From an uncultured delta proteobacterium (GTDB taxonomy: Bacteria > Desulfobacterota > Binatia > Binatales > Binataceae), in contig CAVQEQ010000004.1 of NCBI GenBank assembly GCA_963711565.1, positions 800,001-864,000 on the forward strand: 64,000 nucleotides of DNA, in the 5' to 3' direction. Each line of letters begins with the position of its first letter. Position 1 is the first letter of the stretch. A program made the position numbers and the translations under genes. Below the pieces are notes generated by a model, which was given only the letters and a program-made list of their open reading frames with translations, searched no databases and was not told where the DNA came from. Shown piece after piece: positions 36,622 to 53,814 of the stretch.

Positions 36622-37194
36622 TTAGTAGAACCACTTGCCGTTGTCCCAGCGGAAAATTTCCGTGGTGTGGGTGTCGCTGACGGTCTTGGGCGCCGCGTGC
36701 CGGGCCTCGTCCTCTGACTTGCCGACGATGTAGTAGACGAATTCCTCGTACGAGATCTTTCCGATCGAATAGCCGTCTTTGGACTGATGCGATTCGCACT
36801 CGGCTATCTTGCCGTAGCCGGTGTAGGTCGCGGTCTCGAAACCTTCTTTCAGGACGAACTGCAAATTCGACAGATTATTAACCTCGCGGTCGTGCAAATC
36901 CTGCCCCCAATGTTTGCAAAAGTCCGGAAACAGTGCCGATGCCTTCTTAAATTCGATGTCGCGCTTGATCCGGTCGGGCGTGATCTTCGCAATCAGTTTT
37001 TTGACCTCTTGCCGCAGGGTCTTCTTCGCCGCCGGTGAAGCCATTGCCCCCGGAACTGCCGCGCTATCGGATGCTGGAGCGGATGATACCTCCGCACCCT
37101 CTTGCGGTTGCGCGCGCCCCGGCGACGCCACCAGCATCGCCGCCAATGCGAACGCCGCGACCGCTCCAATACCCATCGTTCGTATAAACGTCAT
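36622..37194 (-). CDS. Hypothetical secreted protein (start uncertain)
   Basis: Signal-peptide-like segment ending GRA|Q, then a two-Cys globular domain. Confidence 0.6.
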   Translation of the reverse strand: MTFIRTMGIGAVAAFALAAMLVASPGRAQPQEGAEVSSAPASDSAAVPGAMASPAAKKTLRQEVKKLIAKITPDRIKRDIEFKKASALFPDFCKHWGQDLHDREVNNLSNLQFVLKEGFETATYTGYGKIAECESHQSKDGYSIGKISYEEFVYYIVGKSEDEARHAAPKTVSDTHTTEIFRWDNGKWFY

Positions 37195-37258
37195 AGCGAT
37201 GGACTCTATAGCAAAAATCAGCGTCATCGTCAGCCTTTCGCAAAGAGAGGTGTCGCGC

Positions 37259-37294
37259 AAAAAAAGGCCGCAGCCCCATAACGGGACTGCGGCC
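37259..37294 (-). terminator. Intrinsic terminator of OmpA copy E
   Basis: GGCCGCAGTCCC/GGGGCTGCGGCC stem plus T7 on the minus strand. Confidence 0.85.
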
Positions 37295-37323
37295 GGTTGT
37301 GGACGTTGCAATCGCGGTCCGGC

Positions 37324-38004
37324 TTACTGTTCGGGCACCAGTTCGACGCGGCGGTTCTGAGCGCGGCCCTCAGCCGTTCTGTTGGTCGCGACGAAGCCGG
37401 TCTTGCCGTAGCCGTGCACCCTCAACTGGAGCACGTTGATTCCGCCGTTCATCAGGTAATTCGCAACGGCGTTGGCTCGATACTCGGAGAGCCTCTTGTT
37501 GTATGCGTCGTTGCCGATCCAGTCGCAGTAACCGTTCACGTTGATCACGGTGTTCGGATTGGCCTTTAGAGTAGGAATGGCTTCATCCAGCACGGCCGCA
37601 TCGCCCGGACGGATGATCGCCTTGTTGAAGTCGAAATGCACTCCGCGCAGCACCAGCTTCGGCGGTGGTGGAGGAGGTGGTGGCGGCGGTGGCGGAGGCG
37701 GCGGTGGAGGAGGTGGTGGCGGCGGCGGTGGCGGCGGATTCGGCGCCAGCAGGTAACCGATCGTGCCGCCGATTAGCGCGCCCCCGACGACTCCCACAGG
37801 ACAACCGATCTCATAGCCCTTGCCGGTACCGCTTAGTCCCGCGGCAAGTCCGCATCCCAGGCCTGCGCCGGCAATTGCGCCGTCAACCGATCCCCACCCC
37901 GCGTAGTATTTCTGCTCTGGCGTCCACGACGCGCATGACGAAGCCGTAAATAAAACGACAATCGCAAGTGCGCCTACCCAACTTTTCCGCTTATGCACTA
38001 GCAC
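37324..38004 (-). CDS. OmpA-domain lipoprotein E: glycine zipper, Pro26 linker (most diverged C-terminal domain)
   Basis: Lipobox ASSC, VHFDFNK, GYCD, LSEYRA, RAQNRRVEL. True start may be GTG 37998. Confidence 0.9.
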   Translation of the reverse strand: MLVHKRKSWVGALAIVVLFTASSCASWTPEQKYYAGWGSVDGAIAGAGLGCGLAAGLSGTGKGYEIGCPVGVVGGALIGGTIGYLLAPNPPPPPPPPPPPPPPPPPPPPPPPPPPKLVLRGVHFDFNKAIIRPGDAAVLDEAIPTLKANPNTVINVNGYCDWIGNDAYNKRLSEYRANAVANYLMNGGINVLQLRVHGYGKTGFVATNRTAEGRAQNRRVELVPEQ

Positions 38005-38045
38005 CCCTCCCTGGGATTCAAGCCGTTCCAGAATTTAGCACCCGA

Positions 38046-38124
38046 ATTGTGTCATTTTTGGGTATCTAGGTCTATTAGCGGACGAAGCGATTACCTAACA
38101 CGGGATTCGTAACCGTTCGTTCAC
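38046..38124 (-). promoter_or_regulatory. Sigma70-type promoter plus upstream direct-repeat box (copy E)
   Basis: TAGACC-17-CACAAT, and GTGAA-N6-GTTAC about 35 bp upstream of the -35. Conserved in four intergenic regions. Confidence 0.65.
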
Positions 38125-38127
38125 CAG

Positions 38128-38165
38128 AAAAAAGCGGCCGCAGCCCCTCGAGGGGACTGCGGCCG
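38128..38165 (-). terminator. Intrinsic terminator of OmpA copy D
   Basis: Same stem family as 37259-37294, plus a T-tract. Confidence 0.85.
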
Positions 38166-38193
38166 GTTACAAGCGTGTCAGTTCTGTTCCGAC

Positions 38194-38874
38194 TTACTCG
38201 TTAGGCACCAGCTCGACGCGACGATTCTGGGCGCGGCCCTCGGCCGTGTCGTTGGTGGCGACGAAGTCAGTCTTGCCGTAGCCGTGCGGAATCAACTGGC
38301 TCGACGGGATCCCAGCTTTCACCAGGTAGTCCACGACCGCATCCGAGCGCCGATCGGACAGCTTCAGGTTGTATTCCTCACCGCCGATCGCGTCGCAGTA
38401 GCCGTTGACGCCGATCGTCACGTTCGGATTGGCCTTCAGAGTCGATGCGGCCTCATCCAGCACGGCGGCATCACCCGGCCGAATCTTCGACTTGTTAAAG
38501 TCGAAATGCACACCGCGCAGCACCAGCTTCTGCTTGACCGGCGGCGGCGGAGGCGGTGGCGGAGGAGGCGGTGGTGGTGGCGGAGGAGGCGGCGGCGGTG
38601 GCAGAGGTTTAGGCGCCAGGAAGTAGCCGATCGTGCCGCCAATCAGAGCGCCGCCAACCACGCCGGTCGGGCATCCAATCTCGTAGGCTTCGGCGGAGTG
38701 ACCTTTATCCTGGGTGGCTGCAATTCCGCAACCGAGTCCGCCGCCCAGGAGCGCGCCGGCGCCCGCTCCGTAAAGCGTGTACTCCTTCTGCTCAGGCGTC
38801 CATGACGAGCATGACGAGACAGTGAGGAGCACGGCGCACGCCACTGCCGCAATCCAATTCTTCGATTTAAGCAT
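38194..38874 (-). CDS. OmpA-domain lipoprotein D: glycine zipper, Pro21 linker
   Basis: Lipobox VSSC. OmpA C-terminal domain motifs. GGGAGG RBS. Confidence 0.9.
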   Translation of the reverse strand: MLKSKNWIAAVACAVLLTVSSCSSWTPEQKEYTLYGAGAGALLGGGLGCGIAATQDKGHSAEAYEIGCPTGVVGGALIGGTIGYFLAPKPLPPPPPPPPPPPPPPPPPPPPPVKQKLVLRGVHFDFNKSKIRPGDAAVLDEAASTLKANPNVTIGVNGYCDAIGGEEYNLKLSDRRSDAVVDYLVKAGIPSSQLIPHGYGKTDFVATNDTAEGRAQNRRVELVPNE

Positions 38875-38922
38875 TAAGACCCTCCCAAGTTACGAAGACA
38901 TCTCCGAAGGTAAACTCCCCAA

Positions 38923-39002
38923 ATTCTGACATTTTTGGAAAACCAGGTCCATTGAGGCACCCAAGCCGTCTTATACCGCCTGACCCGTAACAGCTCGTTT
39001 AC
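38923..39002 (-). promoter_or_regulatory. Promoter plus direct-repeat box (copy D)
   Basis: TGGACC-17-CAGAAT and GTAAA-N6-GTTAC. Confidence 0.65.
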
Positions 39003-39006
39003 AAAG

Positions 39007-39042
39007 AAAAGCGGCCGCAGCCCCTCGAGGGAACTGCGGCCG
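39007..39042 (-). terminator. Intrinsic terminator of OmpA copy C
   Basis: CGGCCGCAG stem plus T-tract. Confidence 0.8.
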
Positions 39043-39069
39043 ATTACTAGCGTTGTCAGTCTCGGCGAC

Positions 39070-39765
39070 TTACTCGTTAGGCATCAGCTCGACGCGGCGG
39101 TTTTCAGCGCGACCCTCGGCCGTGTCGTTGGTGGCAACGAAGTCAGTCTTGCCGTAGCCGTGCGGAATCAACTGGCTCGACGGGATTCCGGCGTTCACCA
39201 GGTAATCCACGACCGCATTCGCGCGCCGATCGGATAGCTTGAGGTTGTATTCCTCACCGCCGATCGCGTCGCAGTAGCCGTTGACGTAGATCGTCACGTT
39301 CGGATTCGCCTTCAGAGTTGATGCGGCCTCATCAAGAATTGCGGCATCACCCGGACGAATCTTCGACTTGTTGAAATCGAAATGCACTCCACGCAGCACC
39401 ACCTTCTGCTTGACCGGCGGCGGTGGAGGCGGTGGCGGAGGTGGCGGCGGAGGTGGAGGTGGTGGCGGCGGTGGCAGCGGTTTCGGTGCGATCAGGTAGC
39501 CGACGGTGGCGCCGATCAGTGCGCCGGCGCCGACTCCGACCGGGCATCCGATCTCATAAGCCTTGGCACCCTGCACGCCCACGCCACCATGTCCGGACGT
39601 CGCTGCGGCAATTCCGCAGCCGAGTCCGCCGCCGAGGAGCGCACCGGCGCCCGCTCCGTATAACGTGTACTCCTGCTGCTGTGGCGTCCAATTAAACGCG
39701 CACGACGAGAGCATCAGAAGAGCGACGCTCGCAAATCCGCCCACCCAATTTTTCCACTTGTACAC
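39070..39765 (-). CDS. OmpA-domain lipoprotein C: glycine zipper, Pro20 linker
   Basis: Lipobox LSSC. OmpA C-terminal domain motifs. Confidence 0.9.
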   Translation of the reverse strand: MYKWKNWVGGFASVALLMLSSCAFNWTPQQQEYTLYGAGAGALLGGGLGCGIAAATSGHGGVGVQGAKAYEIGCPVGVGAGALIGATVGYLIAPKPLPPPPPPPPPPPPPPPPPPPPVKQKVVLRGVHFDFNKSKIRPGDAAILDEAASTLKANPNVTIYVNGYCDAIGGEEYNLKLSDRRANAVVDYLVNAGIPSSQLIPHGYGKTDFVATNDTAEGRAENRRVELMPNE

Positions 39766-39815
39766 TAGAGCCCCTCCCTGAGTTTCAGCCGACCCCGCAA
39801 ATTAAAACTCCGTGG

Positions 39816-39895
39816 ATTGTGCCACTTTTGGGAAGGCAGGTCTATTGAGGAACAAATCGGTTCGGATAGCGTCACGTTCGTAACAGTTCCTTCAC
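39816..39895 (-). promoter_or_regulatory. Promoter plus direct-repeat box (copy C)
   Basis: TAGACC-17-CACAAT and GTGAA-N6-GTTAC. Confidence 0.65.
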
Positions 39896-39933
39896 AAAAA
39901 AGCGGCCGCAGCCCCTCGAGGGGACTGCGGCCG
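39896..39933 (-). terminator. Intrinsic terminator of OmpA copy B
   Basis: Identical to the copy D terminator. Confidence 0.85.
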
Positions 39934-39961
39934 GTTACAAGCGTGTCAGTTCTGTTCCGAC

Positions 39962-40639
39962 TTACTCGTTAGGCACCAGCTCGACGCGACGATTCTGGGC
40001 GCGGCCCTCGGCCGTGTCGTTGGTGGCGACGAAGTCAGTCTTGCCGTAGCCGTGCGGAATCAACTGGCTCGACGGGATACCGGCTTTCACCAGGTAATCC
40101 ACGACCGCGTCCGAGCGCCGATCGGACAGCTTGAGGTTGTATTCCTCGCCACCGATCGCGTCGCAGTAGCCGTTGACGTTGATCGTCACGTTCGGATTGG
40201 CCTTCAGAGTTGATGCGGCCTCATCCAGCACGGCGGCATCACCCGGACGAATCTTCGACTTGTTGAAGTCGAAATGCACTCCGCGCAGCACCAGCTTCTG
40301 CTTGACCGGCGGAGGCGGTGGCGGCGGAGGAGGAGGCGGTGGAGGTGGTGGTGGCGGCGGAGGCGGTGCCGGTTTCGGCGCCAGCAGGTAACCGTTCACA
40401 GCGCCGATCAGCGCGCCCATCACGACGCCAGTGGGGCATCCGATCTCATAACCCTTGGCGGAGCCACTTACTCCCGCTGCAATCCCACAACCCAGGCCGC
40501 CGCCGATGAGCGCGCCGGCAGCCGCTCCGCCCGCAGTGTATTCCTTCTGCTCCGGCGTCCACGACGCGCATGACGAGACCGTCAGCAGCACGGCGATCGC
40601 TCCAGCGCCAATCCAATTTTTCCAACTAATCACTAGCAC
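39962..40639 (-). CDS. OmpA-domain lipoprotein B: glycine zipper, Pro20 linker
   Basis: Lipobox VSSC. OmpA C-terminal domain motifs. True start may be GTG 40633. Confidence 0.9.
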   Translation of the reverse strand: MLVISWKNWIGAGAIAVLLTVSSCASWTPEQKEYTAGGAAAGALIGGGLGCGIAAGVSGSAKGYEIGCPTGVVMGALIGAVNGYLLAPKPAPPPPPPPPPPPPPPPPPPPPVKQKLVLRGVHFDFNKSKIRPGDAAVLDEAASTLKANPNVTINVNGYCDAIGGEEYNLKLSDRRSDAVVDYLVKAGIPSSQLIPHGYGKTDFVATNDTAEGRAQNRRVELVPNE

Positions 40640-40680
40640 CCTCCATCAAGTTCAAGTTAGTCCGGAATCAAACGCTGCTA

Positions 40681-40759
40681 ATTCTGCCTTTTTTTGGACG
40701 CTGGGTCTATTCACGCGTCGAGCAGGTCTGTTACGCGGGGCTCGTAATAGTGCCGTAAT
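40681..40759 (-). promoter_or_regulatory. Promoter plus direct-repeat box (copy B)
   Basis: TAGACC-17-CAGAAT and ATTAC-N6-ATTAC. Confidence 0.6.
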
Positions 40760-40770
40760 CGGCAGGATAC

Positions 40771-40811
40771 AAAAAATGCGGCCGCAGCCCCCTTGACGGG
40801 ACTGCGGCCGC
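40771..40811 (-). terminator. Intrinsic terminator of OmpA copy A
   Basis: GCGGCCGCAGTCCC stem plus T6. Confidence 0.85.
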
Positions 40812-40840
40812 TTTACAGACAATCTCAGTCTCGGCCCGGC

Positions 40841-41554
40841 TTACTCATTCGGTACCAGTTCGACGCGGCGGTTCTGAGCGCGACCCTCAGCCGTGTCGTT
40901 GGTGGCAACGAAGTCAGTCTTGCCATAACCGTGCGGGATCAACTGGCTCGACGGGATTCCGGCTTTCACCAGGTAATCCACGACCGCATCCGAGCGCCGA
41001 TCGGACAGCTTGAGGTTGTATTCCTCGCTGCCGATAGCGTCGCAGTAGCCATTGACGTTGATCGTCACGTTCGGATTGGCCTTCAGAGTCGTTGCGGCCT
41101 CATCCAGAACGGCGGCGTCACCCGGACGGATGATCGACTTGTTGAAGTCGAAATGCACACCGCGTAGTACCAACTTCTCCTTTACCGGCGGCGGCGGAGG
41201 AGGCGGTGGAGGCGGCGGCGGAGGAGGTGGCGGCGGTGGAGGAGGCGGCGGTTGGATTACTTCGTCGCAGAGGTAGTGGCCCGCTAGCGCGCCGACCAAG
41301 CCGCCTGCGGCTGCTCCGCCCAAGCCCGCCCATACGCGGGAATCATTGCTGCTGTTCGATTTCCCTTGGGTATTGTCAACGATGACGATGCCTGAAGCGG
41401 CACCGATACCCGCTCCAAGTGCGCCACCGACGGCCGCGCATATTCCCCACGATCGTGGCTGCTCCAGATATGCGCAACCGCTCATGCTGGACGCGAATAG
41501 CGCCGCGCCAGCGATGGCAACGACCGCATTCAAAAGCCTTGATTTCAGTCTCAT
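40841..41554 (-). CDS. OmpA-domain lipoprotein A: glycine zipper, Pro22 linker (distinct N-terminal domain)
   Basis: GAGGAGGAG RBS, lipobox MSGC, OmpA C-terminal domain motifs. Confidence 0.9.
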   Translation of the reverse strand: MRLKSRLLNAVVAIAGAALFASSMSGCAYLEQPRSWGICAAVGGALGAGIGAASGIVIVDNTQGKSNSSNDSRVWAGLGGAAAGGLVGALAGHYLCDEVIQPPPPPPPPPPPPPPPPPPPPPPVKEKLVLRGVHFDFNKSIIRPGDAAVLDEAATTLKANPNVTINVNGYCDAIGSEEYNLKLSDRRSDAVVDYLVKAGIPSSQLIPHGYGKTDFVATNDTAEGRAQNRRVELVPNE

Positions 41555-41821
41555 GAACTCCTCCTCACCCAAGAGCGTCTACGCGCGGAAGTGAACCCCT
41601 CACTTGCCCCCGAACGGCGAACCCATGTGCAAACGGGTATCCCCACCCAATTGACGGGGAAATATAGTTATATTTGTAACAGGAATGCAACACGTCCGGG
41701 GGGTGCAAGGCGAGATTTCTGCCCAGAGACTGGCTGGCGTCGCTGCGGCGAAGCCCGGTCGACCTGTGGATAAGTGTCGCTGAATTTGTTCCGGTTACCC
41801 GGTAAGGCGGGGCTGATACGA

Positions 41822-41872: not shown

Positions 41873-42352
41873 TCAGTTATGGTGATGATGCTTCTGCGCA
41901 GGGATTGCTCCTGCTTCGTTTGCTCCAGCCACCGGCTCGTGCTCTGCATAGGTACCCGGATGCGGCGCGACCTCGGCATGATTCTGGGCCCATTCGGGAT
42001 GATCATGCGCCCACTCTGGATGGTGCTCGTTCACCCAGTTGGGGTCGTGCGCATGCCACCAGTTCTCGTCGCGCCATACGTGACCCGAATCGTAGGCCCC
42101 GACGCCGTGCTGGGCGAGCCTCTTGTATTCGTTGGGATGGTTCTGCATGAACGTCTGCAATTCAGGATGCTCATCGCGGAATTGCTTGTTGTAAAGCAGC
42201 GACGGATCGGCGCGTACTTTAGCAGCCAAGTCCGGATGCGCATTGAGAAACTTGTCCATTTTCGGGCCCATCTCCTGCGCCATCGCCACCGATGTTATCG
42301 CGGTCGCGAGCAGAATAATCGCGCCGGCTAGCAAGGTTTTAGGATGCTTCAT
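41873..42352 (-). CDS. Secreted His/Pro/Trp-repeat protein
   Basis: AGGAG RBS, signal peptide AMA|Q, repeated (F/W)xxxHP units, C-terminal HHHHN. Confidence 0.8.
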   Translation of the reverse strand: MKHPKTLLAGAIILLATAITSVAMAQEMGPKMDKFLNAHPDLAAKVRADPSLLYNKQFRDEHPELQTFMQNHPNEYKRLAQHGVGAYDSGHVWRDENWWHAHDPNWVNEHHPEWAHDHPEWAQNHAEVAPHPGTYAEHEPVAGANEAGAIPAQKHHHHN

Positions 42353-53127: not shown

Positions 53128-53814
53128 ATGAACAGAATTTCGAATGCCCTTATTCCTGCGATCGCGCTGCTGCTCGCCATCGCCGCCCCCGCGCATTCCG
53201 AGACGATGGCTCCGGCTAGTCCGCCCGTCAGCAAAGACCTGAAACAGGTACTCGATCGCCTGCAACGTCACTACCGCGACACCAATTCGTTCTCGGCGAA
53301 GTTCAGCGAGGAGGTCACCACCGTCGGCGCGCCGGCACGCAAACGTCAGGGCACGGTTTCATTTCGTAAGCCCGGACGCATGCGATGGGAGTTTGAGGAT
53401 CCCGAAAAGCAAACGATTGTCAGCGACGGCGAGACACTCTACAGCTACGATCCCGATCTCAATCAGGTCGTGGAGACTCCGTTAAAGCAGGCGCTCAAGT
53501 CGAGCAGCGCAACGTCGTTCCTGCTCGGAATCGGCAATATCAACCGCGACTTCAAGGCGTCGTTCGCGAATCCCGCGACGCCGTCCGGTCTCATCGATCT
53601 GATCCTCGACGCGAAAACCGGCGGCTACAAGATCGAGGTGGGCCTCGATCCGCAGACGTACAATCTCGTGACGTTGACGCTTACCGACCAGCTCGGCGAC
53701 GTGACCAGAATCGACTTCAGCGACATCCATGACAATGTGGAACTGCCCGATTCGATTTTCGCTTACAAGGCGCCGGCCGGCGCGGACATCGTAACGGCGC
53801 CTGCCTCGCCCTGA
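53128..53814 (+). CDS. lolA: Outer-membrane lipoprotein carrier LolA family
   Basis: KPGRMRWEF, IVSDGETL..YDPDLNQV. Canonical position after ftsK. Confidence 0.85.
   Translation: MNRISNALIPAIALLLAIAAPAHSETMAPASPPVSKDLKQVLDRLQRHYRDTNSFSAKFSEEVTTVGAPARKRQGTVSFRKPGRMRWEFEDPEKQTIVSDGETLYSYDPDLNQVVETPLKQALKSSSATSFLLGIGNINRDFKASFANPATPSGLIDLILDAKTGGYKIEVGLDPQTYNLVTLTLTDQLGDVTRIDFSDIHDNVELPDSIFAYKAPAGADIVTAPASP

What the first reader, a model, noticed from the sequence alone, without database searches (positions are those of the whole stretch)
37259..41700. Five tandem, independently transcribed OmpA lipoproteins with 20-26-residue pure polyproline spacers: a candidate tunable outer-membrane/peptidoglycan tether set
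Seen: five paralogues, each with lipobox, glycine-zipper domain, an uninterrupted Pro run (26, 21, 20, 20, 22, counted from DNA) and an OmpA C-terminal domain. Four C-terminal domains are nearly identical, while signal peptides and the loop between the zipper helices vary. Each gene has its own terminator, so this is not an operon. Mixed Pro codons indicate selection on the protein rather than a microsatellite. Known: OmpA C-terminal domains bind peptidoglycan; polyproline II rises about 0.31 nm per residue, giving roughly 6-8 nm; such runs depend on EF-P. Inference: a family of rigid molecular-ruler tethers, with variable loops possibly exposed and differentially expressed.
Basis: partly seen in the sequence, partly recalled or inferred. 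Interest (0 to 1): 0.72.

Follow-up and report, generated by a model that had tools for sequence, protein, structure and literature searches.

The report
Fixed-length polyproline envelope tether array
Five side-by-side genes in an uncultured soil bacterium encode proteins with a nearly constant-length proline spacer that likely tie the outer membrane to the cell wall at one fixed distance while their differing heads likely do different jobs, a new variant of a known protein type that would offer a simple test of how envelope spacing is set.

Summary
There are five intact minus-strand genes, each with a lipobox, a glycine-rich hairpin, a Pro run (26/21/20/20/22) and an OmpA_C domain, and each with its own terminator and predicted promoter. 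Independent DNA runs cover all four gene junctions. The relatives' record titles point to Candidatus Binatus.

'Tunable' is not supported. The hairpin-to-OmpA_C spacer is 32-35 residues in all five copies and 33.5±1.5 in 66 genus copies.

The membrane head is what differs. Head types recur across species under purifying selection (loop dN/dS 0.03-0.13). Each head carries either an inner or an outer cysteine pair (66 of 66). C domains are homogenised within genomes (p=5e-5; control p=0.10).

This genome has Pal but no detectable Lpp or barrel OmpA. Spacer length is family-specific across the class (means 24-48 residues), but Pal and TolA lengths do not co-vary with it.

Best reading: YiaD/Pba-like outer-membrane-to-peptidoglycan tethers with one fixed semi-rigid spacer and specialised heads. 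They fall below both family cut-offs. Lipidation, membrane crossing, wall binding and any ruler role are inferred. New variant of a known kind; moderate interest.

The parts
37266..37294 (-). intrinsic-terminator-like hairpin after c1
37324..37998 (-). c1: lipobox Cys 37933-37935; head type B with outer Cys pair; Pro26 at 37660-37737; divergent 'last-slot' OmpA_C at 37327-37656
38046..38074 (-). sigma70-like promoter motif of c1 (two hexamers 17 nt apart); TTAC box at 38108-38113
   Evidence: predicted, motif derived from these copies
38135..38165 (-). terminator-like hairpin after c2
38128..38310 (.). 183-nt tract identical to 39896-40078 (3' end of c2 and c4 plus terminator): likely gene-conversion tract
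38194..38874 (-). c2: lipobox Cys 38809-38811; head type B with outer Cys pair; Pro21 at 38539-38601; OmpA_C at 38197-38526
38923..38951 (-). promoter motif of c2; TTAC box at 38986-38991
   Evidence: predicted
39012..39042 (-). terminator-like hairpin after c3
39070..39765 (-). c3: lipobox Cys 39700-39702; head type C (longer His/Gly loop) with outer Cys pair; Pro20 at 39415-39474; OmpA_C at 39073-39402
39816..39844 (-). promoter motif of c3; TTAC box at 39879-39884
   Evidence: predicted
39903..39933 (-). terminator-like hairpin after c4
39962..40633 (-). c4: lipobox Cys 40568-40570; head type B (the 9-member cross-species clade) with outer Cys pair; Pro20 at 40307-40366; OmpA_C at 39965-40294
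40681..40709 (-). promoter motif of c4; TTAC boxes at 40743-40748 and 40754-40759
   Evidence: predicted
40778..40811 (-). terminator-like hairpin after c5
40841..41554 (-). c5: lipobox Cys 41474-41476; head type A with inner Cys pair, first gene of every syntenic array examined; Pro22 at 41186-41251; OmpA_C at 40844-41173
41649..41692 (-). 44-nt element, nearly invariant upstream of type A genes; likely the promoter region of c5
41765..41773 (-). perfect DnaA-box 9-mer (consensus recalled) at a conserved distance upstream of the first gene

Best explanation
The five genes encode likely outer-membrane lipoproteins whose glycine-rich hairpin is predicted to sit in the membrane and whose OmpA_C domain likely grips peptidoglycan, joined by a proline spacer of nearly the same length in every copy that would act as a semi-rigid strut, with the copies differing in their membrane heads, which likely pick different protein or lipid partners.

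Shown: the architecture; the constant spacer (32-35 aa); conserved head types; mutually exclusive Cys pairs; homogenised C domains; one promoter-like motif and one terminator per gene.

Inferred: lipidation and Lol delivery; insertion of the hairpin across the membrane with the loop outside; a disulfide staple; binding to meso-diaminopimelate (mDAP); a polyproline II strut of about 6-8 nm; partner choice by the heads; and that the family stands in for Lpp and barrel OmpA in this lineage. The array would expand and contract by unequal recombination (1-5 copies), with conversion keeping the wall-binding module uniform.
For: Spacer length: 33.5±1.5 aa (29-36) in 66 intact copies of 83 hits. The standalone paralogue type, which shows no significant conversion with the array, has 33-36. 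Pro-codon third positions among 9 orthologues agree at 0.43 against 0.37 by chance, so the DNA turned over while length stayed. Hairpin-less paralogues have 28-34 aa from Cys to domain.

Wall binding: the Asp and the Arg 15 residues later are present in 66 of 66. This matches the D262/R277 pair mutated in E. coli OmpA (PMC11648852, passages). The C domain matches OprF, Pal and YiaD structures.

Membrane head: AlphaFold gives a two-helix hairpin (H6-34, H40-65; mean pLDDT 81.5). Each copy has two uncharged stretches of at least 21 and 19 aa.

Host machinery: lolA, lnt, lpxC and dapF are present. No Lpp or OmpA-barrel match was found, while the E. coli control rang. All 11 PF00691 hits are accounted for without a barrel.

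Heads: they mostly group by type across genomes; A is not resolved from D, and C and F are not resolved. Loop dN/dS is 0.03-0.13 in four array types.

Conversion: A versus non-A/D C domains are closer within a genome (0.274) than across genomes (0.354; p=5e-5), with control p=0.10.

Geometry: simulated inner-leaflet-to-wall distance with Lpp is 8.3±2.1 nm (PMC8824477, passages). Loss of Pba widens the polar periplasm and raises vesiculation (PMC7947798, passages).
Against: No biochemical or imaging data exist for these proteins.

Pal linker length does not track the spacer across 6 families (rho 0.09, p=0.87). TolA length trends the wrong way across 5 families (rho -0.7, p=0.19; 16 of 36 loci parsed). 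In family f3 the spacer ranges from 29 to 61 aa, and one locus carries both a 29 and a 59, so a strict ruler is not class-wide.

Single-copy loci exist (G006, G019), so multiple heads are dispensable in some species. The negative correlation between Pro and non-Pro residues (r=-0.59) partly reflects simple Pro-to-Ala substitutions. Conversion could itself equalise spacers inside an array. The genome is 94.9% complete, and the Pfam Lpp model is narrow (1 of 14 controls rang), so a divergent Lpp may be missed. Long polyproline is only semi-rigid (recalled).
Confidence: 0.55

Rival explanations
1. Gene dosage: the copies are redundant tethers multiplied to make more protein, since long Pro runs slow translation. 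Head differences are tolerated history.
For: Copy number varies from 1 to 5 at the same locus. C domains are converted. C-domain codon bias is high (72nd-97th percentile against a ribosomal-protein reference). The single EF-P has Asn at its loop tip and no EpmA over cut-off.
Against: Loops of each type stay conserved between species whose synonymous sites differ at 0.55-0.9, and conversion has not erased the heads. Type A always holds the first slot, with its own regulatory region. A distinct C-domain clade sits in the last slot in 7 of 8 cases.
Confidence: 0.2
2. The heads are exposed loops kept diverse by phages or predators, so each cell can change its surface by expressing different copies.
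For: Loops differ in length and charge between types. Head types are shuffled between slots and C-domain classes. Each gene has its own promoter-like motif.
Against: Loop dN/dS is 0.03-0.13 within array types, and in three of four types it is lower than in the rest of the head. The four internal promoters share one motif. No phase-variation switch was looked for with a dedicated tool; none was noticed by eye. Ancient balancing selection is not excluded.
Confidence: 0.1
3. One reading: a set of rulers of different lengths that tunes envelope spacing by differential expression.
For: Pure Pro runs differ (20-26). Spacer length differs between families of the class. Geobacter shifts between Lpp and Pba anchors with ionic conditions (PMC13442872, passages).
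Against: Total spacers in this genome are 33, 33, 32, 32, 35 and 33. Means per head type span only 31.8-34.8, about 1 nm at most.
Confidence: 0.05
4. The polyproline is merely a protease-resistant, non-folding linker. Its length only needs to be long enough, and its purity is lineage drift.
For: Interrupted Pro/Ala/Thr linkers serve in most other families and in 25 distant hairpin-OmpA representatives (longest run 1-11). There is no co-variation with Pal or TolA.
Against: The range is narrow (29-36) across 66 copies, including the non-converted paralogue. The proteome otherwise has no run above 5 Pro. Pure runs also occur in families f8 (median 28) and f3 (up to 41).
Confidence: 0.1

Closest known systems
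Pseudomonas aeruginosa Pba (PA1041), NCBIfam NF053612
   Same: Lipoprotein with an OmpA_C domain; best or second-best NCBIfam hit for all five, extending into the N-terminal part for c3-c5. Pba binds mDAP and tethers the outer membrane (PMC7947798, passages).
   Different: Scores are 101-131 bits against a cut-off of 250. The Pba paper's main text has no occurrence of 'proline' or 'glycine'. Here there are a pure Pro20-26 spacer and six paralogues.
E. coli YiaD, NCBIfam NF053611 (glycine zipper/OmpA-like lipoprotein)
   Same: Same domain order: lipid anchor, two-helix glycine zipper, OmpA_C. YiaD is proposed to link outer membrane and wall (PMC8824477, passages; 10.64898/2025.12.22.696046, passages).
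   Different: Scores are 116-123 bits against a cut-off of 175, with the best stretch limited to the C domain. YiaD is described as a low-copy-number protein. The Cys-paired heads and polyproline spacer are features of the Binatus set.
SlyB / YfgH glycine-zipper outer-membrane lipoproteins
   Same: Helical hairpin with GxxxG repeats. SlyB forms transmembrane rings round beta-barrel proteins (PMC12408116, passages; the primary paper was not read). SlyB and YfgH do not substitute for each other (10.64898/2025.12.22.696046, passages), a precedent for specialised heads.
   Different: SlyB and YfgH are not described there with an OmpA_C domain. The structural match is middling (7OJF, Z 6.2, rmsd 3.4, 56 aligned, rank 6).
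Braun's lipoprotein Lpp
   Same: A rigid element between outer membrane and wall that is proposed to act as a brace and dictate width (PMC8824477, PMC11648852, passages).
   Different: Lpp is a coiled-coil trimer bound covalently to the wall. Here the spacer is polyproline and binding is predicted to be non-covalent; no homology.
Barrel OmpA
   Same: Bilayer-spanning anchor plus OmpA_C. An inner-leaflet lipid anchor alone did not replace the barrel (PMC11648852, passages).
   Different: The anchor here is a predicted alpha-helical hairpin, and the linker is polyproline rather than a disordered segment.

Membership tests
OmpA_C domain (PF00691) | HMM score above gathering cut-off and matching fold | tested here: met
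   74-90 bits against 27.2; Foldseek E 2.8e-10 to OprF C domain
OmpA_C domain (PF00691) | Asp/Arg pair 15 residues apart used for wall binding | tested here: met
   66 of 66 copies; sequence level only
OmpA_C domain (PF00691) | actual binding to mDAP peptidoglycan | not testable with these tools
   needs a binding assay; dapF is present
YiaD family (NF053611) | lipobox with Cys | tested here: met
   ASSC, VSSC, LSSC, VSSC, MSGC; +2 residue A, S or T in 66 of 66; motif only, and the 66 were selected by this motif
YiaD family (NF053611) | two-helix glycine zipper between lipobox and OmpA_C | tested here: inconclusive
   Hairpin predicted and 6-11 GxxxG motifs, but Pfam zipper models are below cut-off for the five; PF13488 at E<=0.001 in 16 of 92 homologues
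YiaD family (NF053611) | curated score cut-off 175 | tested here: not met
   116-123 bits
Pba/PA1041 family (NF053612) | curated score cut-off 250 | tested here: not met
   101-131 bits
Pal (TIGR02802) | score cut-off 125.35 and location beside tolB | tested here: not met
   67-82 bits; a separate pal lies beside tolB on C1
SlyB-like ring-forming zipper proteins | hairpin fold like SlyB | tested here: inconclusive
   Z 6.2, rmsd 3.4, 56 aligned, tied with unrelated hairpins; single-sequence model, pLDDT 68.9
SlyB-like ring-forming zipper proteins | oligomeric ring enclosing lipids or barrels | not testable with these tools
   needs cryo-EM or native mass spectrometry
Lpp (PF04728) | coiled-coil sequence family | tested here: not met
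   no match in the five proteins or the genome; E. coli control rang

The most novel reading that the evidence does not exclude
In Binatus and kin, an alpha-helical membrane hairpin plus a pure polyproline strut plus OmpA_C does the jobs of both barrel OmpA (bilayer-spanning fencepost) and Lpp (rigid brace). The number of prolines then encodes outer-membrane-to-wall distance per lineage (family mean spacers of about 24 to 48 residues). The conserved head types, stapled by inner or outer disulfides, would form SlyB-like rings that anchor different outer-membrane clients to the wall.
Probability: 0.2. Interest if true: 0.72.

Novelty: new variant of a known kind. Interest (0 to 1): 0.42.

Why it matters
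How bacteria without Lpp set and hold the outer-membrane-to-wall distance is open. A polyproline spacer is the simplest possible ruler: one codon adds about 0.3 nm (recalled). The natural series found here (family means 24, 29, 30, 33.5, 39 and 48 residues) can be expressed in laboratory E. coli lpp/ompA mutants to ask directly whether a non-covalent tether can brace as well as pull. The array also shows modular evolution, with conserved heads and converted tails. It is also a natural test substrate for an EF-P type whose loop tip is Asn. If the ruler test fails, this is an ordinary expansion of a known tether type.

Tried and rejected
Assembly artefact: rejected (copies differ at 13-82 of 330 C-domain nucleotides).

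Microsatellite: rejected.

Operon: disfavoured. A promoter-like motif was found before 27 of 36 non-type-A copies, all 109-113 nt from the lipobox Cys, against a shuffle mean of 0.16. The pattern was derived from these genes and relaxed after a stricter one found 17 of 36. The generic sigma70 scan found 0 sites.

Homo-tetramer prediction of the c2 head: no answer (score 0.03, mark 0.42); not used either way.

Foldseek on the c5 head: nothing at E<=0.001.

Co-variation of the spacer with Pal and TolA: no support.

EarP search: uninformative, as no control rang.

The first codon-bias attempt had an empty reference set and was redone.

RNA runs: contigs only, selected by this stretch, and possibly containing DNA. 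Near-identical pieces lie on c1, c2, c3 and c5. No clean c4-specific piece was among the 26 of 195 rows shown, which proves nothing. Copies cannot be ranked.

The DnaA box as a uvrB element was considered, but an intervening gene separates them in most loci.

Literature: none of 10 searches listed a paper on these Binatota proteins, on a polyproline spacer in a zipper-OmpA lipoprotein, or on such an array. The library lacks most subscription papers. I saw listings and 'find' passages only, with no whole text and no supplements.

Rows dropped: 17 of 83 hits (frameshifted, hairpin-less, other N domain) and 15 of 101 (14 barrel-like by eye, 1 hairpin-less).


Full report
OBSERVATION. The window is G000:C4:800001-864000 of a 4-contig, 94.9% complete genome. 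Close relatives carry record titles and names of Candidatus Binatus/Binataceae, and the nearest Atlas clusters are mostly Binatota. Five minus-strand ORFs lie between 37324 and 41572, called c1 to c5 from left to right. Each has a lipobox, a Gly-rich segment, a Pro run of 26, 21, 20, 20 or 22 and an OmpA_C domain. C domains c2-c5 are 90-99% identical; c1 is 71-74% identical to them. A sixth paralogue with Pro20 stands alone on contig C3. These six are the only ORFs with 6 or more consecutive Pro among about 4126 crudely called ones. The runs use CCG, CCA and CCT, never CCC (0 of 109, against 26% genome-wide), and no codon repeats more than 4 times. Avoiding long C tracts prone to slippage is my inference. 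DNA runs from two studies cover all four junctions at flank-like depth.

TRANSCRIPTION UNITS. Each gene is followed by a strong hairpin and T-run. A sigma70-like motif precedes c1-c4 and 27 of 36 non-type-A copies in the genus at a fixed distance; the shuffle mean is 0.16, and the pattern was derived from these genes. A TTAC box lies about 40 nt further upstream in 20 of those 27. The first gene has a different, nearly invariant 44-nt element and a perfect DnaA-box 9-mer in 14 of 19 type A genes; the genome holds only 17 such 9-mers. RNA contigs match c1, c2, c3 and c5 but cannot show level or strand. C-domain codon bias ranks at the 72nd-97th percentile.

COMPARATIVE ANATOMY. Of 20 loci fetched from relatives, 18 share neighbours with the window (uvrB, two hypothetical genes, acyl-CoA dehydrogenases) and hold 1-4 copies. 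Two further loci hold 5. Among 66 intact copies of 83 hits, the distance from the end of helix 2 to OmpA_C is 33.5±1.5 aa; in this genome it is 33, 33, 32, 32, 35 and 33. The longest Pro run (c1) is offset by loss of flanking residues, so the set is not tunable. Hairpin-less paralogues have 28-34 residues from Cys to domain, with interrupted Pro. This fits both ends of the hairpin facing the periplasm (inference).

HEADS AND TAILS EVOLVE DIFFERENTLY. The head tree mostly groups sequences by type across genomes. Types D and E and a 9-member B clade are well supported; A is not resolved from D, C and F are not resolved, and the columns are few. Type A is first in all 19 syntenic arrays, frameshifted in one. 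Every head has exactly two non-lipid Cys: an inner pair in 34 and an outer pair flanking the loop in 32. In the models the paired Cys sit symmetrically about the turn; a disulfide is inferred, not measured. Loops are under purifying selection: dN/dS is 0.07 (B), 0.03 (D), 0.09 (C), 0.13 (A) and 0.34 (standalone S); for E it is undefined because synonymous sites are saturated (groups of 3-9). C domains often group by genome instead. A versus B/C/E/F copies differ by 0.274 at fourfold sites within genomes against 0.354 after permutation (p=5e-5; 12 genomes, 21 pairs), whereas A versus the standalone gene shows no such effect (p=0.10). Two of 11 genomes went against the trend in the paired test. 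c2 and c4 share 183 identical bases over the gene end and terminator. A separate C-domain clade (8 rows, SH-aLRT 100) lies in the last slot in 7 cases and carries heads B, C or E, so heads and tails have been exchanged. That crossovers fall in the Pro codons is plausible but not shown.

HOST CONTEXT. The genome has lolA, lnt, lpxC, dapF, four L,D-transpeptidase-family matches and tol-pal. It has no match to Lpp or the OmpA barrel. Its 11 OmpA_C hits are the six paralogues, Pal, a ZorB and three other predicted lipoproteins. Other families of the class do carry barrel-like OmpA with Pro-rich linkers (judged by eye). There is one EF-P, with Asn at the loop tip and no EpmA over cut-off. Asn-tip EF-Ps are known, and their modification is unresolved (PMC6544042, passages).

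ACROSS THE CLASS. The same architecture scored in 75 of 100 genomes from other families at E<=1e-36, a count that includes barrel forms. Spacer means were f7 24.3 (n=7), f9 29.3 (19), f10 30.1 (10), f13 30.6 (5), Binatus 33.5 (66), f8 39.0 (20) and f3 48.1 (11, range 29-61); 72% of the variance lies between families. Kin are not independent, loci were the best hits of a Pro-containing profile, and 9 f8 loci were picked for their Pro runs. Of 12 (CCN)16 loci fetched, all from f8, 9 were this protein type. So pure runs are not unique to Binatus, but 25 more distant representatives had runs of only 1-11. Pal and TolA lengths did not co-vary with the spacer, which counts against a simple class-wide ruler, though the Pal linker is likely flexible (own knowledge).

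MECHANISM. Inferred steps: Lol delivers the lipoprotein to the outer membrane; the stapled hairpin inserts, perhaps oligomerising as SlyB does (PMC12408116, passages); the Pro run forms a polyproline II strut of about 6-8 nm (0.31 nm per residue, recalled); and OmpA_C binds mDAP through the Asp/Arg pair conserved in 66 of 66. The length fits the 8.3±2.1 nm simulated for E. coli with Lpp (PMC8824477, passages). OmpA function needs a bilayer-spanning anchor coupled to the wall (PMC11648852, passages), which a hairpin could supply. I put this fixed-strut, specialised-head reading at 0.55, dosage at 0.2, surface variation at 0.1, inert linker at 0.1 and tunable rulers at 0.05.

COMPARISON AND VERDICT. 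The proteins work like YiaD and Pba but fall below both NCBIfam cut-offs, so they are not filed as members. The new features are the pure constant spacer, the two Cys classes, conserved heads on converted tails and lineage-specific lengths. Ten literature searches listed no description. Novelty: new variant of a known kind.

Noticed in passing
window 41765-41773 (-): A perfect DnaA-box 9-mer (consensus recalled) lies 286-301 nt upstream of the lipobox Cys in 14 of 19 type A genes; the genome has only 17. It may couple the first gene to the replication cycle.
   Followed up: partly
window 41649-41692 (-): A nearly invariant 44-nt element upstream of type A genes, containing a TTAC half-site shared with the internal promoters; regulator unknown.
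   Followed up: partly
L156:1303-1866 (G000:C4): The only EF-P has Asn, not Lys or Arg, at the loop tip; no EpmA over cut-off.
   Followed up: partly
window 53281-53766 (+): lolA lies about 12 kb from the array in the same window.
   Followed up: no
window 36622-37311 (-) and 41873-42352 (-): Two hypothetical, probably exported proteins without a Pfam or NCBIfam family over cut-off flank the array, and are syntenic in most relatives.
   Followed up: partly
G000:C1:467247-468141 (L157): Three tandem small glycine-zipper lipoprotein-like genes without OmpA_C, plus two more elsewhere.
   Followed up: no
L155 (G000:C4:21739-25053): Low-GC Zorya type I-like defence genes (ZorA, ZorB, ZorC matches).
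   Followed up: partly
L063, L065, L070 and P0141: The same OmpA_C module (82-89% identical in the three loci) is fused through a Pro-rich linker to an unrelated exported domain with no Pfam match in P0141.
   Followed up: partly
L189, L191, L193 (family f3): Homologues with uninterrupted Pro runs of 36, 41 and 32. Family f3 genomes also hold up to 7 Pal-like matches.
   Followed up: partly
L040, L031, L032, L033: Several relatives have frameshifted array copies, probably assembly indels; they were left out of the counts.
   Followed up: no
L042 (G020:C20): A second, non-syntenic two-gene array with its own head type F in one relative.
   Followed up: no
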